This document shows positions 1 to 49,227 of a stretch of DNA of 64,000 nucleotides, in pieces. Each line of letters opens with the position of its first letter. Position 1 is the first letter of the stretch. The translations under genes were made by a program, and so were the position numbers. This DNA comes from a virus, in IMG/VR virus record IMGVR_UViG_3300021168_000016, positions 61,422 through 125,421 of that record. One strand, given 5' to 3'. The notes beneath the pieces are model-generated. The model worked only from the letters and a program-made list of their open reading frames with translations. It had not been told where the DNA came from and did no database searches.

Positions 1-1686
1 GCCGAAGCTCACGCGATTTATTAATCAGCGACATAGAGTAGACAAACGTGACAGTTGTCTACTCTTTGATGTTGATATAAATCAATCAGATAGGAGATGT
101 TATGCGTCAGATTGGATCTGATCTTCGTGAAGTATATGGTTCGCACTATCGTCCCGAGCTAGTTGGTCAGCTTGGATCGGTTGTTAATGTTCAAACCCTT
201 AGGGTAGCAATGGGTCTACCGGCAGGCAAACTGCCAGTCGGCGCTGTTGATGCTCAGCTGATAGGTGATACCTATGTGGGTATTTCCAGCAGAGCAGTCG
301 CGGAATTGATGGCACCTAACTCACACAGGCCACATAGAATGTTTGCCCGTTGTAATCACTGTGGCCGTTGGATACCTGTCGGACGCTTTGGACAGCATCT
401 CGGCTTATACCGAATTGGTGGAAGAACTGCTGATGGCAAGCCACGATATGGCAAGCCATGTAAGGAGCGTGTATCATGACATCAGGACGCAGATTTTTCT
501 GGTCACCTAAAACCTCAATAGAACACATCAAACAGACAATAGGTGGCTCCACAATCAGCCATGAAGAGATGGAAAAGCTGAAGCAAGAACAGAAGACTGA
601 CATCGAGAAAGGAGCGGCTGAGGCTAGCCGCCAGCATCTCCGACTAATCGGGCTATTCCAGGAGATTGGAATGCATCCGACAGGTATTCACATCGGCATT
701 GAAAAAGGAGGAACACTCCTTTCGGATGATGGAGAGGAGCTTTGGAATGGAGCTATCTCCGCAGAATCATTCGAAGATACCATGATTGACTATCTCGAAT
801 CCATGCCTGAATCAATAGATCAGACCATCGAGTATGTCAGGCAGAAGTTGCAAGAGAAAAGAGACAAGGTAGCAGGTTGGAACAAGAAGGCACGCGCCGC
901 TGTTGATACAGCAACTTGTCCTGATTGCGGACACAAACTGCATACAGGAGTCTCTTGTCTGGAATCTGATTGCTGTGGGTGCGGAGAGTGATATCAACTC
1001 CGCTTTCACTCCTGTTTGTATGTCTAGTTGCTTCAACGATCCGAGCATTCTGTGAGGGTGCTGTGAAAGGAGTATACAAGCTCGTGCTATTGTTGGTATT
1101 TGTGAAATGTTTGATTATGTTAGCGGCACTAACGTCTGGGCAGTAGAAGTGAGGTCTGGCCATGCATGTTACACAAAGCGTTGACCGTGCTCCAATCACC
1201 AACATCACAATCAATTGCGATTGTGATGATTTACGTATGGAGACATTTTCTCTCTACGTGGAGATGTTGAATATATATGATGTTTGCGCCGCTGCTATTC
1301 CTGAATGGAGAAGGAGTCAACGCAGACATCAAAATCCAAATCCTAACTGGAAGAACTAAAACATCTGCGACATAGATCAGCCAGTCTGATATAGGCTGGC
1401 TGATGTTTGTTTCATGTGTTAAATCCAATAGAGGAGTTGTAAATGACAACGACAGAACAACCTGACCAAAAATTCAGCTCAGCCGATGAAATAGCAAAGA
1501 CGCTATTACAGAAGCATCCCAACTGGAACGCCAGCCAAAATGAACTAAAGAACACAATCCTGGCAAGTCCGAAAGACTCCGGCACCGACGAAGCTCCAGT
1601 CTATGACGTCCAAAAGACGATGAAGAACATGGAGAAAATGAGCGAGCGCTGGGAGAAAGCTGCTTAATACTGTTGTCGATCGATGA

Positions 1687-20294: not shown

Positions 20295-20986
20295 GATGGT
20301 TCGGAGAAAACTGGGGTGCTCCTATCTGTAAGACGACTAAGCACGCGCCAACTCCTGAAGGTTTACCCTGTGCTCATAACTGTCAACACAGCATCAGAGA
20401 GGGAGATATTGGAGTGCTTATCCCTTATACAGGTCCTCCTTTAGTACATGGGCAATACATAATGGCAGCTGGAATACCGCACATTGGCTACCACCTCGTC
20501 TGTTTCTTTGATGAAATCGGTATACGAGGGAAAACACATGACTGAACACATAGAAAAGATATACGCTCCTTGGACAGAAAGTGAAGTTCACGCTCTGAAT
20601 AAGTACCAGGTTTCTGGGCTTATGCATCCATTCACATGCGGTGAAGAACACGGGAGAGAATCTGTTCTAGAAGCTACAGTAGATGGATGGGTATGTCCAG
20701 TGCCCCTTTGCTATTACACCCAAGATTGGTGCTACAGCTGGATGATAAATATTGGAAAGGAAGAGGTATGACGGAAGTACATCTTGATGCAATAATGCCA
20801 AAGGAGCATGTACAGGAATTTCTGCAATTAATGCGTACATTTGATCTGACACATCCTGACTGTCATTTTGAGGTAACAACGAATGATACTAATATGACAG
20901 CTGAGGAAGCAAGAGCAATCCTAGAAAAGATTCAACCGCCATTCTCAAGTTTGAAGGAATATAAGGGAGGGAATTCATAATTTTAG

Positions 20987-21001
20987 AGTAGCGGTATATA
21001 T
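20987..21001 (+). promoter_or_regulatory. Phage-conserved promoter motif AGTAGCGGTATATA
   Basis: Identical 14-mer also at 35581 and 40083, each just upstream of an operon. Confidence 0.65.
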
Positions 21002-21008
21002 AAAATAT

Positions 21009-21479
21009 ATGGTCTACTTCATTCAAAGTGCCTGCCCAAAAGGGCTTATCAAGATAGGTAATTCGGATAAACCCTTAACCAGGTTGAAAGAACTTCAAAC
21101 AGCTAATGGTTACAAACTGACATTCCTGAAGATTATTCAGGGAGGTTATCAGGAAGAATTAATCACAAAGAAGAGATTCAGGCAGTTCCGTGTTTTGGAG
21201 GGCGGAACCGAGTGGTTTAAACCAGAAAAGGAACTACTCGATTACATCAAATCACTGGTATTAGAACAGGCATTTGAAATGCCTACTACTTACCAAGAAA
21301 TACCTGGAAAGTATGATCCGAGTATTATATCACAAACAGCACTACTTTCTTTGTCTAGTCGAAGACAACTTTCAAAGAGGACTGAGATAAGCAATGAACA
21401 ACTTCTTTCAACGGTGAAGAAGCAAGAATTACCTTCACGAATTGATTTTTCGTTACAAATCAAACTAAGGAGAATATGA
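21009..21479 (+). CDS. GIY-YIG nuclease (T5orf172/MUG113 type)
   Basis: VYFIQ...LIKIG.S..P..RLKELQTAN...EWFKP motifs. Confidence 0.85.
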   Translation: MVYFIQSACPKGLIKIGNSDKPLTRLKELQTANGYKLTFLKIIQGGYQEELITKKRFRQFRVLEGGTEWFKPEKELLDYIKSLVLEQAFEMPTTYQEIPGKYDPSIISQTALLSLSSRRQLSKRTEISNEQLLSTVKKQELPSRIDFSLQIKLRRI

Positions 21480-21480
21480 T

Positions 21481-22134
21481 ATGAGTACAGCAGAAGTAAT
21501 TCAGTTTGAGGAATCTGAATCTCAAGAGATTTCTCTTACAAAGATGTATGAAATCGCAGTAGAATCACTAAGTCCCGTCGGATTCGGACGATACTATGAA
21601 CGAGAATATCCGGCAACACCTGTGGAACAAAACAATAAAGAGACGTATGAAGAACGGACTTGGATGAAACGCCTCTGGATAAACGAAGACGGTAAAGTCT
21701 TCATTCCTGGAGTATCATTCAAAGGGGCGTATGTAAACGCTGCGGGACAGAATATGCTCCCTGATAGAGTTCCAAATACTGGGAATAAAGGGACTTACAC
21801 GAAACACTTCGCTGCTGGTTTCCATGTTATCAACAATGTTGTTACTGAATATACTGAAGCAGATGTTGTCAGGAATAAATGGGGAAAGTGGTTACATGTT
21901 CCCGCAAATGCACAACGAGGAGGGAAGACAAGGGTTATGCGCTGCTTCCCAACAATCCCAAAGTGGGCCGGCAAACTACAGGTAATCACCCATGATCCTT
22001 GTTTGACTAAAGATATCCTAAAGCGTTTCGGAGATGCAGCAGGGTTAGTAATTGGCGTCGGTTCTCTTCGTGTCCAAAACAACGGAATGTGGGGGCAATT
22101 CCGAGTAGTTTCTGTAGAAGAAAAAGCTTTTTAA
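21481..22134 (+). CDS. Stand-alone RAMP/Cas7-like RNA-binding protein (candidate guide-RNA effector)
   Basis: ESLSP, VFIPGVSFKGAYVNAA (RAMP IPGxSxKG) and C-terminal glycine loop IGVGSLRVQNNGMWGQFRV; no other cas genes nearby. Confidence 0.7.
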   Translation: MSTAEVIQFEESESQEISLTKMYEIAVESLSPVGFGRYYEREYPATPVEQNNKETYEERTWMKRLWINEDGKVFIPGVSFKGAYVNAAGQNMLPDRVPNTGNKGTYTKHFAAGFHVINNVVTEYTEADVVRNKWGKWLHVPANAQRGGKTRVMRCFPTIPKWAGKLQVITHDPCLTKDILKRFGDAAGLVIGVGSLRVQNNGMWGQFRVVSVEEKAF

Positions 22135-22440
22135 GATTCGATGCGATGCAATACGCTGAAATATGATAGGATTTGATGGAATATAATCTAATCGGATTAG
22201 ATTTGATAAGATACGAAGTATTTTTATACTGGAATTATGATAGGATCAGATCAAATCTGATGGAATCAAATCGGATAAAATAAGATCGAATGTGATCTGA
22301 GAGAATGAGATTTAATTTGATAAGATATGAAGTATTTTTATACTGGAATTATCATGCGATGAGATAAGATGTAATATAATCTGATACCATCAGCCAAGAT
22401 CTGTTTTGATGGGACCGGATGCGATATGATACGAGATTTT
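22135..22440 (+). ncRNA. Pentamer-coded guide array (RAT-NN), 3 units
   Basis: Strict 5-nt phase, mostly GAT/AAT + variable NN (16, 18 and 16 pentamers); units separated by repeated GATAAGATAYGAAGTATTTTTATACTGGAATTAT (22205-22238, 22319-22352) containing an AGTAT-TTTT-ATACT hairpin. Confidence 0.75.
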
Positions 22441-22459
22441 TCACTTTCGGAGAATCTCT

Positions 22460-23164
22460 GTGCTACAAGACTCCCTCGACAAAATAATCGGAACATACTT
22501 TGCAGGAATTACTCGATCAAGTTTTACTTACAAAGACAGAGTCTACCCACCACAAAATCTTTTAGTAAGTCATTTGTTGTTTAGAGGATACACTTGTCCT
22601 GAAAATTGTGGAGGGTGTTGTCCGCGATTTTCTCTGGATTACCTGACCTCAGAGTACTGTCCGATGCCACAAGTCAAACTCAGGGAAGTTGACTTTAATG
22701 GGAGTAAGATTCCCATTATATCCGATATGCAACTTGATCATCAGGACCACCATTGCAAAAATCTGACTAAATCAAACGGCAGATGCGGAATTCACGGAAA
22801 CCAACCATTTTCATGTGATTTTGAATTATGTCGATTTCTAACCTTCAATGACAGAAATGTATTAACTTCCAAATTATTCGGTAGAGGCTGGGCTTTTCTT
22901 CGAACCGATAACGAAAGAGGAGCTCTTTGTGAGATGCTTCCAGTCACTAAAGAAACGATTGACGAAGTCATAAGGAAGCTGATCCGATTAAAGCAGTGGG
23001 CAGAGTATTTCGGCGTCGATCATTGCTTAGACGCTATAATCCAATGGGCAAGATCAGGATCAGGAATGGATCTTCTTATCCCGAAACACAAAAAGGTGGG
23101 ACTAAATATAAAAAGCATTTCCGGCCCGCAAGAAGAAGACCCGTTAATTCAAATAGAGTTATGA
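22460..23164 (+). CDS. YkgJ-like CxxxCxxCC Zn/Fe-cluster protein
   Basis: CPENCGGCC...HHCKNL...GRCGIHGNQPFSC. Confidence 0.6.
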   Translation: MLQDSLDKIIGTYFAGITRSSFTYKDRVYPPQNLLVSHLLFRGYTCPENCGGCCPRFSLDYLTSEYCPMPQVKLREVDFNGSKIPIISDMQLDHQDHHCKNLTKSNGRCGIHGNQPFSCDFELCRFLTFNDRNVLTSKLFGRGWAFLRTDNERGALCEMLPVTKETIDEVIRKLIRLKQWAEYFGVDHCLDAIIQWARSGSGMDLLIPKHKKVGLNIKSISGPQEEDPLIQIEL

Positions 23165-23613
23165 AAAAACTACCTATTAGAAACAGAAAACTCCCTAAGA
23201 AGGGGCTGCTTCGCAAGAAAAAGGAATTCTGTAAAACAAGCCACCCATTGTGGAATGTTTACTCTAGTATGGACACTAGGTGTAATAAGGATAATAGTTC
23301 CGACTACCGCCACTATGGCGGACGAGGAATTAAAATGTGTGAAAGATGGTCGTCTTCACTTAAAAATGATAAAGGCTTCTGGAATTTTATAGAAGATATG
23401 GGTCCAAGACCTGAAGGTCGTACACCTTCAGGAAAACGGCCTGCTTTCACACTAGAACGTAGAGATAATAATCTAGGTTACAGCAAAAAAAACTGCTACT
23501 GGGCACCTTGGAAGGAACAAGCCAATAATAGACGAAAACCTAAAAGCATCGCTCAACTGGCTAGAGCCAAAGCGTTTACTAATGTTATGAGATTAGGATT
23601 CTACGGTAGTTAA
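23161..23613 (+). CDS. HNH-type homing endonuclease-like protein
   Basis: YRHYGGRGIKMCERW...F..DMGPRP...TLERRDNNLGYSKKNCYWA..KEQANNR. Confidence 0.75.
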   Translation: MKKLPIRNRKLPKKGLLRKKKEFCKTSHPLWNVYSSMDTRCNKDNSSDYRHYGGRGIKMCERWSSSLKNDKGFWNFIEDMGPRPEGRTPSGKRPAFTLERRDNNLGYSKKNCYWAPWKEQANNRRKPKSIAQLARAKAFTNVMRLGFYGS

Positions 23614-23764
23614 AGAAGGTAGGCTTGAACATAAAGAGTATCGGACTCGTAGAAGAAGAACCTCTCATCCAAATTACACATTAGTAATCATGAATTTCGG
23701 ATTTTTCATCTGATGATGAAGCACGAATCGTGATGTTTACAAATAACAGAAAAGGAGAAGAAAA

Positions 23765-24058: not shown

Positions 24059-24475
24059 ATGCCACTAAATGTACCACTTCTACGCGAAATTCAGAAGCAG
24101 ATACTGGAGAAGCCCAACACTTTCTTCATGAGAAATTGGATAAGAAGAAAAAAGTTTGAGGGTTCTACCTACATTAATGATGAAGGACTCAGTACTAGAT
24201 ACGCTGAGTGTGGAACTGTTGGCTGTATAGCTGGGACCGCCTGCCTGATAATGGAGCGTGAAGGGAAACTTTCCGAACTTAACGGCGCAGATGACATCAA
24301 AAGCGGGGCAATTGACCTACTCGGCCTTAAGGACGTAGGAAATTCACTCTTCTACGTGGATAACTGGGACTGTGAAATTCGTAAGGAGTACAGAGAAGCA
24401 CCAACAGCTAAGTGTCGGGCTGTTGCGGCGTGTAAACAGATCGATCTGTACATCGAACAACACAAAGGAGAATAG
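24059..24475 (+). CDS. Tandem paralogue 1 (MPLNVxLLR...CGTxxCIAG family)
   Basis: Aligns by eye with the three following ORFs. Confidence 0.75.
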   Translation: MPLNVPLLREIQKQILEKPNTFFMRNWIRRKKFEGSTYINDEGLSTRYAECGTVGCIAGTACLIMEREGKLSELNGADDIKSGAIDLLGLKDVGNSLFYVDNWDCEIRKEYREAPTAKCRAVAACKQIDLYIEQHKGE

Positions 24476-24477
24476 CT

Positions 24478-24924
24478 ATGCCAAAGTTAAACGTACCTCT
24501 ACTGAGAGAAATACAGAAGCAGATCCTCAGGGAACCAAATGGCTTCTTCATGAGATCTTGGATACGCAGAAGAAGTCATGATAATGAAGAATTCTTTTCT
24601 GGCGATATTGTAGCAGGAGGATCAGATCTACAAAGATTTCCTGAGTGTGGTACAGCTGCATGTATTGGAGGCTGGGCAGTATTACTTTCCGGAGGCACAT
24701 ATAACGAGAACGTAGAACCTATAGCCAAATCCCTTCTAGGCCTTTCTAGTACTTGGCTCTTCCAAGTTTCGACTTGGGATAGAGATCTCCAAGGAAAGTA
24801 TTGGTCTGAGCCATCAGTCGAGTGTCGTGCAGCTATCGCTGCTGAACAAATCGAACGTGTCATTCAACGCTACGGAGAAAAGGAGAGTGAAAGTGAAAAA
24901 GTCACTAAATGTGAAGCTACTTAG
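24478..24924 (+). CDS. Tandem paralogue 2
   Basis: LNVPLLREIQKQIL..P..FFM..W...CGTAACIGGWA. Confidence 0.75.
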   Translation: MPKLNVPLLREIQKQILREPNGFFMRSWIRRRSHDNEEFFSGDIVAGGSDLQRFPECGTAACIGGWAVLLSGGTYNENVEPIAKSLLGLSSTWLFQVSTWDRDLQGKYWSEPSVECRAAIAAEQIERVIQRYGEKESESEKVTKCEAT

Positions 24925-25309
24925 AAAGGTGCAGAAGCATATCATGAAGGAGCCTAAGCGTCTCCTCATGGGAGAGTGGCTAGTCACCAAATCTAAGAAA
25001 GTTCCCCAGTTTGAGAACGATGCAGGCGAATGGGAACATTTTCCGAAGTGTAATACAGCTGCCTGTATAGCCGGATGGGCAGTTATGTTACATGATAAAC
25101 ATCCTCCACGAGGAAAATCAATTGAGACTAGAGCTACCAAGATATTGGGTGGTAGCTCTATGGACAGCTTGTTTTATACCTCTCTGTGGAAGCTAGAGCA
25201 CGAGTTCAACACAGCAGAAACTCCTCGTCAACGAGCTAAGATAGCCGTTAAAGAGATCGATCACTTCATCAAAGAACATGAGAAGAAAAAAAGGAGTTTA
25301 GGTAAGTAG
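24893..25309 (+). CDS. Tandem paralogue 3
   Basis: LNVKLLRKVQKHIM..P...M..W...CNTAACIAGWA; GTG start after AAGGAG. Confidence 0.7.
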   Translation: MKKSLNVKLLRKVQKHIMKEPKRLLMGEWLVTKSKKVPQFENDAGEWEHFPKCNTAACIAGWAVMLHDKHPPRGKSIETRATKILGGSSMDSLFYTSLWKLEHEFNTAETPRQRAKIAVKEIDHFIKEHEKKKRSLGK

Positions 25310-25344
25310 CTTTGGAAGTTAAATAAGGATGAAAGGAAAATCAA

Positions 25345-25800
25345 ATGCCGCTAAATGTTAAACTGCTTAGAAAGATACAGAAACGTATCCTAACCCAACC
25401 ACAGGCATTCTTTATGCACGACTGGATACGTAGAAAAGAGTATTCCTCCAACAATACATTCCAGAATCCAGACACAGGTAAAGTGACAGAATTTACCACC
25501 TGTGGTACTGCTGGCTGTATAGCAGGATGGGCTATCCTGTTAACAGAGAAGAAAGGAGATGCGAAACTCATCTGGTCTAGCCAAATCCAGGAGAAGGCCA
25601 CAGAGATACTTGGCCTAAGCCCCGGTGAGGACCTCATATTTGGTTCACCAAACTGGGGGACAGAACTTAGCGATGCTTACGAAAATGCTAAGTCTGATCT
25701 TTGTCGTGCTGCTGTAGCGGTGAAAGCAATAGACAACCTGATTGAGCGGCACAAGGCAAAGAAACCTAAGGCTGTATTAAGCTCCTTTGAGAGCTTCTAA
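25345..25800 (+). CDS. Tandem paralogue 4
   Basis: MPLNVKLLRKIQKRIL..P..FFM..W...CGTAGCIAGWA. Confidence 0.75.
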   Translation: MPLNVKLLRKIQKRILTQPQAFFMHDWIRRKEYSSNNTFQNPDTGKVTEFTTCGTAGCIAGWAILLTEKKGDAKLIWSSQIQEKATEILGLSPGEDLIFGSPNWGTELSDAYENAKSDLCRAAVAVKAIDNLIERHKAKKPKAVLSSFESF

Positions 25801-42305: not shown

Positions 42306-43364
42306 TTGAAGCCGAAGATCAGATTGATGGTAGATTCAGGCGCGTATAGCTCCTGGACGCAAAATAAGCCGATCTCCCTTCCTGAATACACAGAGTTCGT
42401 TCTAAAGAATCAAGAGGTAATAGATTCTGTAGTTAACCTTGATGTAATACAACCCGGCTCGCCTGAGACTGCGGCTGCGGCAGGAAGAGAAAACTTCTTA
42501 AAGATGAGGGAGGCTGGTGTCATTAGCCTCCCTGTCTTCCACGCTCGTGAGAGTCTAAAGTGGTTCGATCTTATGCTGGAGGAATGTCCTTACATTGGGA
42601 TATCAGCCACTAGTCTGGTTAGTCCTAGAGAGCAGCAATCATTCCTTGATCTAGCATTCCATTATGGAACAGATAGTAAAGGCTATCCAATTGCTAAGTA
42701 TCATGCATTCGGAGATACAGCTCCAAAGTCCCTGTTGTCATATCCATGGTTTAGTTGTGATAGCGCCACCTGGATGATATCAGGATGCAGAGCAGGCTCT
42801 GTCAAGCTGAAAGGGAAGACATATAGACTACGTTCTAAAGTAGTCTCTGATACTAATTACATTTCAGATCACGATGCTCTTCCTCAGAAAGAGGCTTGGC
42901 AAAACGAATTCAGAATGCTGGGATTAGATCCTGATGCTGTGATGTCTGTTAAGACTACACCTTCCCAACTGGCTATGATTAGATCCTATCTTGTAGCTAG
43001 TGACATCTTGAAGCTCCAAGAACAGACAAGAGGAGTAACACGCTTTAAGAAGCCAGGAGCACTCATCATCAATAAGAAGCAGGAGGCTGGTGGAATAGAA
43101 AGAGAAGGTCCTATCCGTGTCATATTTGTGATTAGTCCATCGGCAGCGTTTATGAACTTCCCAGTTATATGTGCTCTTGGGATCAAGGATATCTTGGCGT
43201 CTTACTTTTATATTGCGAAGGAAAAACCTAGATTTTGGCACGAACGATTAGTCCCCTTTCTACACGACCCAATGGCTTTCATTAAAAGTGATATGAAAAT
43301 GTCTGCTTTCTATTCTAAACTTCAGGAGGTGTTACTAAAAAAGGAATCGACGATTTTAGTATAA
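42306..43364 (+). CDS. DpdA/TGT-like 7-deazaguanine DNA transglycosylase
   Basis: VDSGAYS, NLDVI, PVFH, YHAFG, YPWFSCDSATW motifs; lies within the que cluster. Confidence 0.75.
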   Translation: MKPKIRLMVDSGAYSSWTQNKPISLPEYTEFVLKNQEVIDSVVNLDVIQPGSPETAAAAGRENFLKMREAGVISLPVFHARESLKWFDLMLEECPYIGISATSLVSPREQQSFLDLAFHYGTDSKGYPIAKYHAFGDTAPKSLLSYPWFSCDSATWMISGCRAGSVKLKGKTYRLRSKVVSDTNYISDHDALPQKEAWQNEFRMLGLDPDAVMSVKTTPSQLAMIRSYLVASDILKLQEQTRGVTRFKKPGALIINKKQEAGGIEREGPIRVIFVISPSAAFMNFPVICALGIKDILASYFYIAKEKPRFWHERLVPFLHDPMAFIKSDMKMSAFYSKLQEVLLKKESTILV

Positions 43365-43650
43365 GATTTGACATGGCCTGACCCGGTTAGGTAGGGTAAG
43401 GTTAGCTCCGGTGACACCAGGTTAGGTGCGGCTGGCAAGGATTAAGATTTGACACGGTGAGGTGTGGTCGCGTATGGCGGGGTAAGGTTTATCTTGGCGA
43501 GGTAAGGTTAGGCTGGCTAGGTGAGGTTCGTTGCGGTACGGTTAGCCACACTTTGGCTAGGTAGGGTAGGACGCGGTTAGGCTGACGTGGTGGAGCAGGG
43601 CACGGCTTGAAATGGCTCGGTGTGGTAGGGTTGGGCGTGGACCGGCAAGG
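43362..43650 (+). ncRNA. Pentamer-coded guide array (GGY-NN), 4 units
   Basis: 5-nt phase, mostly GGT/GGC + NN, 12-13 pentamers per unit; leader TAAGATTTGACA (43362, 43443), junction GGCT, terminal GGCAAGG (43434, 43644). Confidence 0.75.
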
Positions 43651-47706: not shown

Positions 47707-48634
47707 ATCTACACCTCTTATTACAAAGTATCGACCGATTGCCTTCTCTGAAGTTATCGGTAATACTGAGATTATTAAAGGATTAACGGATGCTGTAAGA
47801 GGACCAAATTGTCCTCACGGATTCTTATTCACAGGATCAGCTGGGATTGGCAAGACAACTTTAGCTAGAATTATTGCTAAAGAAATCAATGCCTCTATCA
47901 TAGAAATCGATGCTGCCTCCAACTCCGGAGTCGATGATATGCGTCTGGTAGTTGAAGCTTCAGGATTTAGTTCTATCACACTTCAGCCAAACAGATTGTA
48001 TATCATCGATGAAGCTCACAATCTCAGCTCTAAGGCTTGGCAACCTTTACTTGCTCTTATCGAAAATGCTCCTAAGTCAGTCTTTGTAGCTTTATGTACA
48101 ACTGATCCAAAAAACATCCCTACTACAATCATATCACGTTGCCATCCTGTTCCATTACGTCCTCTGAAATCTCGAGAGATAGAAGATTTAGTTGTCGTTG
48201 TAGCTGAACTTGAAGGATGGCCTCTACATGGAGATATTATCATGCCTTTAGTTATGTCTGCTGAAGGCAGTGCAAGGAGAGCTTTATCTAATCTACAAGC
48301 ATGCCACCTAGCACAATCAAGAGAAGAACTTTCTAAACTGCTACTAAAAGTTGAGTCAGAAGATGATCCGGCCATTAAGCTATGCAAGTATCTGATGACA
48401 GGAAAGCGTGAATGGAGACAGATCCAATCTTATCTAATTGAAGTTGATGATCATGATAGAGCATTACAGGACATGACTCGATACCTAGTTGGGGCAATGG
48501 GGCGCAGCGAAGAAAGCCAAGCACACGAACTCTGGCTACTCGTGCAAAAGTTTACAGCTCCTTCGATGTGGGATAGAAAGGTGCAACTTTATGCTGCTGT
48601 CGGGAATTCTCTTTGGGGGCAAATCCCCTTTTAA
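47699..48634 (+). CDS. Clamp loader, DnaX/RFC-like AAA+ ATPase
   Basis: KYRP..F.EVIG, GSAGIGKTT, EIDAASNSGVDD, IIDEAH, SRC. Confidence 0.9.
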   Translation: MPESTPLITKYRPIAFSEVIGNTEIIKGLTDAVRGPNCPHGFLFTGSAGIGKTTLARIIAKEINASIIEIDAASNSGVDDMRLVVEASGFSSITLQPNRLYIIDEAHNLSSKAWQPLLALIENAPKSVFVALCTTDPKNIPTTIISRCHPVPLRPLKSREIEDLVVVVAELEGWPLHGDIIMPLVMSAEGSARRALSNLQACHLAQSREELSKLLLKVESEDDPAIKLCKYLMTGKREWRQIQSYLIEVDDHDRALQDMTRYLVGAMGRSEESQAHELWLLVQKFTAPSMWDRKVQLYAAVGNSLWGQIPF

Positions 48635-48660: not shown

Positions 48661-48747
48661 GGAAATGACGCGGCTAGGTTGGGCGCTGCGTGGACTGGTA
48701 TGGTAAGGTCCGGCGCGGTTGGGTATGGTAAGGTTAGGCAGGCAAGG
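48661..48747 (+). ncRNA. Single GGY-NN guide unit
   Basis: GAC-start, 14 pentamers, GGCAGGCAAGG end, as in the 43.4-kb array. Confidence 0.75.
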
Positions 48748-48759
48748 AAAGGTAAATCA

Positions 48760-49227
48760 ATGGGGGAAGATCGAGAACCAACTTTCAAGGCTGAAAAGTA
48801 CCGCTGGTTGAAGCAGAGAGTTCGACTTGATCTTCTCTACATTGACGAAGATATTCAGGAACTACCTATTCTTCTTCAGGAAGCAGGAGAAAACACAGCA
48901 GTAGCACTAGAGCGAAGAGAATCAACGAAGGCAGATCTTGAGACACAGGAAGCAGTAACAGCAAATAGGCTTAGGCGGGATGAGTACAATGGAAAGAAGT
49001 CAGAGGCTGCTATCGCAAGCATGATACCGCTTGATGAAGACTACCAAAGGATCCAAAAAGATCTAAGCGAAGCTAGACTAGATGCTTCACTCTGGATGAA
49101 TTTGATGGATACGTTACGCTCTAAATCGTCTCTAGTCAGAGCTTCAGCAGATCTAGTACAAGCAGGGTTTATTTCTACCGTTCACTACACCGAAAAGAGA
49201 AAACGAGACTTGAGAACGCCGTCATGA
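48760..49227 (+). CDS. UvsY-like recombination mediator
   Basis: Helical protein with SEAAIASMI..DEDY; located between clamp loader and SSB. Confidence 0.55.
   Translation: MGEDREPTFKAEKYRWLKQRVRLDLLYIDEDIQELPILLQEAGENTAVALERRESTKADLETQEAVTANRLRRDEYNGKKSEAAIASMIPLDEDYQRIQKDLSEARLDASLWMNLMDTLRSKSSLVRASADLVQAGFISTVHYTEKRKRDLRTPS

What the first reader, a model, noticed from the sequence alone, without database searches (positions are those of the whole stretch)
22862..22885. Self-avoidance by six-fold-degenerate codon swaps at both decoded target sites
Seen: where guide and own gene encode the same residue but differ in DNA, the residue is Leu (TTA vs CTN twice here; CTA vs TTN at 49153), Arg (AGA vs CGN) or Ser (TCT vs AGN at 49174). 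Established: these are the only amino acids whose first two bases can change synonymously, so any synonymous mismatch must fall on them. The notable point is that all five such residues at the two sites use the non-matching codon family. Inference: the phage carries immunised alleles, giving PAM-independent self/non-self discrimination.
Basis: inference. Interest (0 to 1): 0.8.

Follow-up and report, generated by a model that had tools for sequence, protein, structure and literature searches.

The report
Phage VIPR guides spare own genes
A soil phage's RNA guides spell the versions of two neighbouring genes that related phages carry, and the phage's own copies mismatch them partly through silent leucine, arginine and serine codon switches that look like ordinary divergence rather than deliberate recoding.

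Summary
All five Leu/Arg/Ser codons that guide and own gene share use the other codon family.

The context is a VIPR system, an RNA-guided DNA silencer described in 2026 preprints. Its guides read two bases and skip one.

Guide unit 3 (22353-22437) spells the family consensus ...ILTQKLFGR of the adjacent YkgJ-like gene.
- A syntenic relative without the cassette (L043) matches 23 of 26 read bases.
- The own gene matches 15 of 26.
- 0 of 200 shuffled guides reach the L043 score.

The solo GGY unit at 48.7 kb spells LIQAGFIST, the consensus of homologues of the gene just downstream. The own copy matches 21 of 30.

So both guides aim at rivals' alleles of the neighbouring gene, and the own copies fall below the published 80% criterion.

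"Immunised alleles" is not shown.
- Silent swaps give only 6 of the 20 mismatched bases.
- Codon-family swaps are as common across the whole gene (12 of 28 versus L043).
- L043 shares one of the three "immune" codons.
- Chance estimates are 0.02-0.1.

This scan has noted the same pattern before in at least 7 other genomes (unchecked notes).

The parts
21009..21479 (+). GIY-YIG-type (T5orf172/MUG113) endonuclease-like gene, first gene of the cassette
   Evidence: Pfam PF13455 E 1.4e-6 and PF10544 E 6.1e-5. No homologue lies next to vipr in 80 other Vipr loci.
21481..22134 (+). vipr gene (217-aa RAMP/Cas7-like protein), the only one in the 125-kb record
   Evidence: AlphaFold model has pLDDT 85.8. 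Best Foldseek PDB hits are type VII Cas7 and Csm3 chains, E 9e-7. 56 homologues found. Single copy in G000.
22135..22219 (+). vrRNA unit 1: 17 pentamers of (G/A)AT + NN
   Evidence: No target found in the own genome or in the fetched loci.
22239..22333 (+). vrRNA unit 2: 19 pentamers
   Evidence: No target found.
22353..22437 (+). vrRNA unit 3, the guide that decodes to the YkgJ-like gene of relatives. Its scaffold is more degenerate than in units 1 and 2 (11 of 17 triplets are GAT/AAT).
22203..22230 (+). Promoter-like TTGATA-16-TATACT overlapping the last repeats of unit 1. A second copy lies at 22317-22344 before unit 3.
   Evidence: 10 of 12 consensus positions each. A consensus match only.
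22460..23164 (+). YkgJ-like CxxCxxCC cysteine-cluster gene, the phage's own copy of the gene that unit 3 is aimed at
   Evidence: Pfam PF03692 E 2e-4 (22.4 bits, just under the 23-bit cut-off) and phrog_16018 E 1.9e-36. 421 homologues.
22844..22894 (+). Own-gene footprint of unit 3 (17 codons, FNDRNVLTSKLFGRGWA). The finding's 22862-22885 is its core.
   Evidence: 18/34 read bases match (15/26 over steps 1-13). The skipped base is the wobble position.
22996..23613 (+). HNH endonuclease-like ORF just after the YkgJ-like gene (start uncertain; it overlaps the gene's end)
   Evidence: phrog_3377 and phrog_8790, E about 1e-28.
48669..48747 (+). Solo GGY-NN vrRNA unit (15 NN) between the clamp-loader gene and gene 48760..49227. 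No vipr gene is nearby.
   Evidence: A terminator-like hairpin of the upstream gene lies at 48615-48628.
48760..49227 (+). 155-aa gene of unknown function, the own copy of the solo unit's target
   Evidence: Start taken from homologues that begin MGED/MD. Only weak PHROG hits.
49147..49191 (+). Own-gene footprint of the solo unit, read as its reverse complement (ADLVQAGFISTVHYT)
   Evidence: 21/30 read bases; this is the best hit in the whole 125-kb genome. 10/15 residues are compatible, reached by 1 of 200 shuffles.
43362..43650 (+). Further orphan GGY-NN units (about four, partly staggered). No target found.
   Evidence: My parsing of units C and D is approximate.

Best explanation
The flagged site is the phage's own copy of a sequence that one of its VIPR guide RNAs recognises in related phages. 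The variable dinucleotides of unit 3, read two bases on and one off in codon register, spell the conserved motif (D/E)(K/N)V(I/M)LT(Q/H)(K/N)L(F/L)GR of the YkgJ-like family. The solo GGY unit at 48.7 kb likewise spells LIQAGFIST of the gene just downstream of it. Each guide sits within about 400-430 bases of the phage's own copy of its target. The vipr cassette (21009-22459) occupies the place where a syntenic relative has two small ORFs. The likely function is silencing of co-infecting relatives that lack the cassette. The own copies are spared because they are diverged orthologues. Amino-acid differences supply 14 of the 20 mismatched read bases, and Leu/Arg/Ser codon-family differences supply the other 6. 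Those family differences are the only silent differences a wobble-skipping code can see. Here they occur at the gene-wide rate. They are therefore most simply pre-existing divergence that surviving guides happen to exploit (selection on guides), not alleles recoded for immunity. What is shown: the decoding, the better match to relatives than to self, the synteny, and the ordinary swap rate. What is inferred: expression, Vipr loading, silencing, the 80% criterion as a functional threshold, and which Vipr uses the GGY unit.
For: The array and its RAMP neighbour are. The VIPR rule, with its 1-nt skip, skip at the wobble position, either strand and no PAM, comes from bioRxiv 10.64898/2026.04.26.720920 (Results and Discussion read). 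Of 120 listed homologues (421 found), the consensus at the site is [IV]LTQKLFGRGWA, and Gln137 agrees in 36 of the other 39 sequences of alignment A1. On 103 homologue loci (652 kb), unit 3's top hits all fall on the homologous codons: 25/34 and 23/26 in L043, reached by 0 of 200 shuffles. A 1-nt skip gives 13 sites at 19/26 or more; skips of 0, 2 or 3 give none. The own site scores 18/34 and 15/26. L043 has no array or vipr. Its first ORF matches own 20804-20977 at 47% identity, so the cassette replaces two small ORFs. For the solo unit, the best genome-wide hit is 49147-49190 at 21/30. It scores 10/15 at the amino-acid level, reached by 1 of 200 shuffles. Seven of 8 homologues have Ile where the own gene has Val. 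Ordinary rate of swaps: 12 of 28 gene-wide against L043, 10 of 25 against the homologue majority, and the footprint at about the 25th percentile of divergence. Published self-scans also found no self hit at 80% or more, and self-match was lower than non-self for vrRNA-targeting guides.
Against: No RNA or binding data exist for this phage. Unit 3's scaffold is degenerate (6 of 17 triplets are not GAT/AAT), so it may be decaying. Its last three dinucleotides match no homologue, since GRGW is invariant. L043 therefore reaches only 25/34 (74%) over all 17 steps, and 88% only if the outer steps are not read. No DNA of homologues of gene 48760..49227 could be fetched, so site 2 rests on protein consensus alone. 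At the nucleotide level its own-genome hit is reached by 20 of 300 shuffles. 5 of 5 swaps, plus 3 of 4 in the one further case found (L106), is more than the 40-45% per-codon expectation. Some selection for self-avoidance, on guide or gene, is therefore not excluded. Across 80 other Vipr loci, a guide resembling a gene within 5 kb was seen clearly only once, so the arrangement is not general at that range.
Confidence: 0.6

Rival explanations
1. One reading: after acquiring the guides, the phage's own alleles were selected to switch Leu, Arg and Ser codon families (and a few residues), so that the guides no longer bind them. These would be immunised alleles.
For: 5 of 5 shared six-fold residues are swapped: p 0.023 by genome usage and 0.052 within the gene (computed by hand). 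Ser137 replaces a Gln that 36 of 39 other sequences keep, and it is one of only 2 own-specific changes at 65 conserved columns. The one further case in another phage (L106) has 3 of 4 swapped. Reverting the swaps would lift site 2 to 24/30, which equals the 80% criterion.
Against: Swaps are just as frequent outside the footprint: 10 of 25 against L043. The array-less L043 shares TTA at Leu139. This gene uses AGR at 6 of 10 conserved Arg columns and TTA at 4 of 10 conserved Leu columns, so the product is about 0.1. Footprint divergence is ordinary. Site 1 stays at 69% even with the swaps reverted. Third positions agree at only 42% of identical residues, so synonymous sites are near saturation and direction cannot be read.
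Confidence: 0.15
2. No present function: the guides are relics. They may have been copied long ago from an ancestral or foreign version of the neighbouring gene, and unit 3 is decaying. The mismatches to self would then be plain drift with no self/non-self role.
For: Unit 3 has the most degenerate scaffold of the three. No natural site matching 80% or more over all 17 steps was found. The solo GGY unit has no cognate vipr nearby, and the genome has a single vipr beside (G/A)AT-type repeats.
Against: The guide keeps codon register and matches the majority codon family of 73 distinct homologue sites at all three six-fold positions: CT 27 vs TT 19, CT 38 vs TT 16, CG 50 vs AG 23. It matches a syntenic relative at 23/26. 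Solo vrRNAs are reported as functional elements that use another element's Vipr (abstract and section 8 of 10.64898/2026.10.15.759431).
Confidence: 0.15
3. Autoregulation: the partial matches let the guides weakly repress the phage's own neighbouring genes.
For: Guides sit directly upstream of the genes they resemble. The own match at site 2 is 70%.
Against: The guides match relatives better than self at exactly the residues where self differs. The own match at site 1 is at background level: 18/34, against a null maximum averaging 21.1 across the genome. The published criterion is 80% or more.
Confidence: 0.05

Closest known systems
VIPR systems (Vipr RAMP protein + vrRNA of pentamer repeats). 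Experimental exemplars are the type II systems of Escherichia phage SUSP1 and a Pseudomonas fulva prophage (bioRxiv 10.64898/2026.04.26.720920).
   Same: A small Cas7-like protein sits next to tandem 5-nt repeats with three fixed and two hypervariable bases. Targets are read with a 1-nt skip in codon register, on either strand. Targets are genes of competing phages. No self hit reaches 80%.
   Different: The fixed triplet is (G/A)AT, not GGY. The neighbouring gene is GIY-YIG-like, and no homologue of it was found beside vipr in 80 other Vipr loci. The guide lies next to the phage's own orthologue of its target. Nothing here is tested experimentally.
Solo/orphan vrRNAs and self-match avoidance (bioRxiv 10.64898/2026.10.15.759431; section 8 and passages read)
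   Same: A vrRNA without its own vipr nearby (the 48.7-kb GGY unit). The self-match score is lower than the match to rivals, which the authors interpret as avoiding autoimmunity.
   Different: There the self/non-self contrast was shown for guides that target other vrRNA loci. Here it concerns protein-coding orthologues. The paper states that escape requires changing amino-acid-determining positions. The terms six-fold, sixfold and leucine do not occur in its main text or in that of the first preprint. Supplementary tables were not visible to me.
Intronless homing / localized marker exclusion by free-standing phage endonucleases such as T4 SegF (recalled from memory, not checked in a call)
   Same: A mobile cassette with an endonuclease-like gene sits beside a conserved gene. 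The rival's allele of the flanking gene is the target, and the carrier's own allele is protected by sequence differences.
   Different: Recognition here would be by an RNA guide. Cleavage, conversion and spread are all untested.
CRISPR self/non-self discrimination (PAM, or repeat-handle pairing)
   Same: An RNA-guided RAMP effector has to spare the genome that encodes the guide.
   Different: No PAM is reported for VIPR. The array itself cannot match its guide because it stores the guide at 5-nt spacing and reads at 3-nt spacing. The only issue is an orthologue in the carrier's genome.

Membership tests
VIPR system | Small RAMP (Cas7-like) Vipr protein | tested here: met
   AlphaFold model of P0002 with a 17-sequence alignment: pLDDT 85.8, pTM 0.79. 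Foldseek PDB top hits are type VII Cas7 and Csm3 chains, E 9e-7 to 1e-4, TM 0.4-0.5. No Vipr structure is in that PDB copy, and the sequence search of the PDB found nothing.
VIPR system | vrRNA: tandem pentamers with a conserved triplet alternating with hypervariable NN, 9-16 units, beside vipr | tested here: met
   Three units of 17, 19 and 17 pentamers start at the base after the vipr stop. The triplet is (G/A)AT instead of GGY. Related Vipr loci carry GGC, GAC, GAG, GTT, CGC and GTC triplets.
VIPR system | Targets follow the 1-nt skip rule, with the skip at the codon wobble position | tested here: met
   Unit 3 on 652 kb of homologue loci: 13 sites at 19/26 or more with skip 1, and 0 with skip 0, 2 or 3. 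All top hits are in codon register at one homologous site. 0 of 200 shuffles reach the top score.
VIPR system | Conserved structured 3' tail after the repeats | tested here: inconclusive
   Units 1 and 2 are followed by the same 21-nt element with a short hairpin. Unit 3 is followed by a different hairpin. No folding or covariation test was run.
VIPR system | vrRNA is expressed, bound by Vipr, and represses its target | not testable with these tools
   Only DNA runs were found. There are no RNA data.
Mismatch-based self-avoidance of VIPR guides | The guide matches rivals' sites better than the carrier's own homologous site, and the own site is below 80% | tested here: met
   Unit 3: own site 18/34 (15/26), L043 25/34 (23/26). 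By my count's last column, 39 of 73 distinct homologue sites beat the own core score of 12/18. Solo unit: own site 21/30. Rivals could be compared only at the protein level.
   5 of 5 swapped. p is 0.023 by genome usage, about 0.06 by gene usage, and 0.052 within the gene. Against L043 the figures are 2 of 3 at the site and 12 of 28 gene-wide.
   The only close array-less relative with DNA (L043) shares TTA at Leu139 and differs at Leu135 and Arg142.
Intronless homing / marker exclusion | An endonuclease cleaves the rival allele near the cassette, and flanking markers are co-converted | not testable with these tools
   Only the parts are seen: GIY-YIG-like and HNH-like ORFs flank the module, and the cassette replaces two ORFs of L043.

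The most novel reading that the evidence does not exclude
Guide, endonuclease-like gene and a resistant allele of the target form one tightly linked selfish module. This would be an RNA-guided counterpart of intronless homing or marker exclusion. The guide marks the neighbouring gene of cassette-less relatives about 400 bases from the insertion point. The linked own allele is the antidote. Leu/Arg/Ser codon families would be the general silent loophole by which carriers, and eventually escaping rivals, evade VIPR's wobble-blind code. That would run contrary to the preprints' statement that escape needs amino-acid changes.
Probability: 0.2. Interest if true: 0.8.

Novelty: new variant of a known kind. 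Interest (0 to 1): 0.5.

Why it matters
The VIPR preprints argue that skipping the wobble base makes guides proof against silent escape. Leu, Arg and Ser can change their first two bases silently. Here such differences make up 6 of the 20 read-base mismatches that separate self from target. At site 2 they make the difference between 70% and the published 80% criterion. This gives a concrete assay: a reporter with the relative's site, the own site, and the own site with only the silent codons changed. The arrangement also matters. In this phage, both guides whose target could be identified lie beside the carrier's own orthologue of that target, and one sits at the edge of a cassette that a syntenic relative lacks. 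That suggests guide and resistant allele are inherited as a linked pair. It bears on how VIPR guides arise and spread, and on how any engineered VIPR tool might be evaded. The specific claim of adaptive recoding is not established here.

Tried and rejected
**Searches that found nothing**
- Tandem Repeats Finder missed the arrays; its only row was unrelated.
- Rfam gave no match.
- blastn of 21400-23700 against cultured phages gave no match.
- The single-protein scan of viral contigs with P0001 found no relative.
- An exact guide-derived pattern gave 0 hits in viral contigs.
- Alignment A3 (homologues of gene 48760..49227) found nothing in viral contigs or genome contigs. Site 2 therefore has no homologue DNA.
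- The earlier-findings look-up for relatives of this stretch returned nothing.
- The PDB sequence search with P0002 returned nothing.

**Guides without targets**
- The own-genome nucleotide scan did not single out site 1 (18/34, against a top hit of 22 and a null mean of 21.1). At full length, neither did the amino-acid scan (8/17). The link of unit 3 to the YkgJ-like gene rests on homologues, not on the own genome.
- Units 1 and 2 and the 43-kb GGY units gave no target above shuffles in the genome or in 103 loci.

**Sequencing runs**
- Laying contigs of runs X1 and X2 on 20900-23700 showed no variants. X1 may be the source sample. X2 holds three short identical pieces, including 22720-22991. 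This says nothing about polymorphism.

**Generality across other Vipr loci**
- In 80 other Vipr loci, 176 array calls were used and weak calls were dropped. Guides resembling a gene within 5 kb were above the shuffled null only for L106 (W12, threshold 9: 4 observed versus 0, 0, 0). At looser settings, observed counts equalled the null.
- GIY-YIG-like and YkgJ-like genes are not beside vipr in those 80 loci.

**Rejected readings**
- A protein-binding repeat RNA of the TRAP kind was my first guess, before reading the VIPR preprints.
- The idea that the guide was copied from the own gene is rejected, because it agrees with relatives where the own gene differs.

**Not seen**
- Supplementary files of the preprints could not be seen. 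The self-targeting scores (Supplementary Table 18 and Supplementary Fig. 3A of 10.64898/2026.10.15.759431) may bear on how general self-avoidance is.

Full report
**What is at the coordinates**

Positions 22862-22885 lie in frame in ORF 22460..23164 and read Leu-Thr-Ser-Lys-Leu-Phe-Gly-Arg. This gene follows an intergenic tract (22135-22437) made of three runs of 17, 19 and 17 pentamers. Each pentamer has a fixed (G/A)AT and two variable bases. The tract starts at the base after the stop of a 217-aa ORF (21481..22134).

I then read the preprints. In bioRxiv 10.64898/2026.04.26.720920 (Results, Discussion and passages):
- a small RAMP protein (Vipr) binds vrRNAs made of YNNGG repeats;
- the NN pairs recognise double-stranded DNA with one skipped base between pairs;
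- the skipped base usually falls on the codon wobble position;
- either strand can be targeted and no PAM is needed;
- natural targets are competing phages and satellites.

**Is this a VIPR system?**

- The 217-aa protein models confidently (pLDDT 85.8). Its best structural matches are Cas7/Csm3 chains (E 9e-7).
- It is the only such gene in the 125-kb record.
- 80 loci with distant homologues nearly all carry 5-nt-periodic arrays beside the gene, with various fixed triplets.
- The skip rule holds for this non-GGY scaffold (see the next section).

**Checking the decoding, site 1**

The own-genome match of unit 3 at 22844-22894 is only 18 of 34 read bases. That is no better than background: the top hit is 22 and the shuffled-guide maxima average 21.1.

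The link becomes clear with homologues. Among 120 listed relatives of the YkgJ-like protein (421 found), the consensus at this site is [IV]LTQKLFGRGWA. The guide's dinucleotides decode to exactly Ile/Met-Leu-Thr-Gln/His-Lys/Asn-Leu-Phe/Leu-Gly-Arg. That includes Ile and Gln, where the phage's own gene has Val and Ser.

On the DNA of 103 homologue loci (652 kb):
- The guide's best hits all fall on the homologous codons, in register.
- The best is L043, at 25/34 overall and 23/26 over steps 1-13. 0 of 200 shuffled guides reach either score.
- With a 1-nt skip, 13 sites reach 19/26. With skips of 0, 2 or 3, none do.

For the per-site table, 9 loci had no recognisable motif and 21 duplicate sites were dropped, leaving 73 distinct sites.

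**Site 2**

The solo GGY unit at 48669-47 (48669-48747), read as its reverse complement, has its best hit in the whole genome at 49147-49190, about 400 bases downstream. It matches 21/30 read bases, a score that 20 of 300 shuffles reach. It is compatible at 10/15 residues, which 1 of 200 shuffles reach.

The eight homologues of gene 48760..49227 read ADLIQAGFISTSYYT there. Seven of the eight have Ile where the own gene has Val, and the guide has the Ile dinucleotide. I could not fetch DNA for these homologues.

**The observation itself**

All five residues that guide and own gene share and that are six-fold degenerate use the other codon family:
- TTA, TTA and AGA against CT, CT and CG at site 1;
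- CTA and TCT against TT and AG at site 2.

**Is it adaptive recoding?**

Several tests say this is not shown.

- Genome-wide usage (TTR 0.315 of Leu, AGR 0.507 of Arg, TCN 0.656 of Ser) gives 0.050 for site 1, 0.45 for site 2 and 0.023 for all five. With the genes' own usage the product is about 0.06.
- Within the YkgJ-like gene, the own family differs from the homologue-majority family at 10 of 25 conserved Leu/Arg/Ser columns. That is 3 of 3 in the footprint and 7 of 22 outside, a hypergeometric p of 0.052 computed by hand.
- Against L043, 12 of 28 conserved six-fold codons differ in family gene-wide, against 2 of 3 at the site. L043 carries the same TTA at Leu139.
- The footprint is not unusually diverged. 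Own gene and L043 share 17/26 read bases there, the window mean is 19.7, and 38 of 150 windows are as low or lower.
- Silent swaps account for 6 of the 20 mismatched read bases at the two sites. Residue differences account for 14.
- With the swaps reverted (by hand), site 1 would still be 18/26. Site 2 would rise to 24/30, which equals the preprint's 80% criterion.
- Ser137 is one of only two own-specific changes at 65 well-conserved columns. That is suggestive but not significant.

**Context**

L043 is syntenic. Its first ORF matches own 20804-20977, and two small ORFs sit where this phage has the GIY-YIG-like gene, vipr and the arrays. The guide therefore targets the neighbouring gene as carried by a relative that lacks the cassette.

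An HNH-like ORF follows the YkgJ-like gene. This resembles intronless homing by free-standing phage endonucleases (recalled from memory, not checked). I keep an RNA-guided version of that as the boldest reading that the evidence does not exclude. No step of it is tested.

Promoter-like hexamers overlap the last repeats of units 1 and 2. That may explain why the final dinucleotides of those units are similar.

**Generality**

In 80 other Vipr loci, one further clear case appeared (L106). A GTT-type guide resembles the phage's own putative small-terminase gene at 20/30 read bases and 11/15 residues. Ser, Arg and one Leu are swapped and one Leu is not.

Counting that case, 8 of 9 shared six-fold residues are swapped. 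This hints at selection against self-matching. It cannot tell whether the gene or the fast-evolving guide was selected.

**Prior art**

- The first preprint reports no self hits at 80% or more.
- The second (10.64898/2026.10.15.759431; outline, sections 8, 17, 25, 26 and passages) reports lower self-match than non-self match for vrRNA-targeting guides. It states that escape requires changing amino-acid-determining positions.
- Neither main text contains the terms six-fold, sixfold or leucine.
- A library search for vrRNA with synonymous or self-targeting found only these two VIPR papers.
- Of the structural preprint (10.64898/2026.04.26.720927) I saw only the start of its abstract in the search listing and one passage.
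- Supplements were not visible to me.
- This scan's own notes record the same idea in at least 7 other genomes, with mixed verdicts. They are unchecked and are not used as evidence here.

**Verdict**

- Observation: confirmed.
- Decoding, and the reading that guides aim at rivals' alleles of the neighbouring gene: well supported for site 1, and supported at the protein level for site 2.
- Self-sparing by mismatch: supported against the published criterion.
- Adaptive synonymous immunisation: not demonstrated. The swaps are most simply ordinary divergence that the guides exploit.

Noticed in passing
L105-L184 (80 loci with Vipr homologues from viral contigs): The 5-nt-periodic arrays beside vipr use many different fixed triplets (GGC, GAC, GAG, GTT, CGC, GTC as called on the vipr strand). 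This is wider than the GGY consensus in the preprint's main text. Twelve of the 80 loci gave no call with my caller.
   Followed up: partly
L106:2859-2947 (guide) and L106:298-342 (own ORF 43..609, just before a large-terminase-like ORF): A GTT-type guide resembles the phage's own putative small-terminase gene (QSEEIRQLCLKNEKL). It matches 20/30 read bases and 11/15 residues. Ser, Arg and one Leu are in the other codon family and one Leu is in the same family.
   Followed up: partly
L136:2469-2526 (guide, reverse complement) and L136:2842-2871 (own vipr): A guide matches the conserved IQIPGKGK motif of the locus's own vipr gene at 17/20 read bases. This is either a vipr-targeting guide aimed at rivals or a near self-match.
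   Followed up: no
genome G000:C1:49917-50021, minus strand (outside the window): A further GGY-periodic array lies on the opposite strand, far from the vipr gene.
   Followed up: no
window 22203-22230 and 22317-22344: Sigma-70-like TTGATA-16-TATACT elements overlap the last repeats of units 1 and 2. Each vrRNA unit may therefore have its own promoter, and the last dinucleotides of units 1 and 2 may be constrained by it.
   Followed up: no
window 24066-25438: Four paralogous copies (61-100% identity over 87 nt, spaced about 420-446 nt) indicate a tandem family of about 140-160-aa genes just downstream of the module.
   Followed up: no
window 22460-23164; hits H1 and H2: In two cultured phages (Pseudanabaena phage Pan1 and Mycobacterium phage Knocker), the homologous YkgJ-family gene lies next to a queuine/queuosine tRNA-ribosyltransferase gene. 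This hints that the guide's target belongs to a 7-deazaguanine DNA-modification module.
   Followed up: no
window 20900-23700, run X2: A second soil metagenome from another study holds three short pieces identical to this phage, including 22720-22991 over the site. The same allele therefore occurs elsewhere at low depth.
   Followed up: yes
window 48615-48628: A terminator-like hairpin with a T run sits directly after the clamp-loader gene and before the solo GGY unit. This is consistent with the unit being a separate transcript.
   Followed up: no
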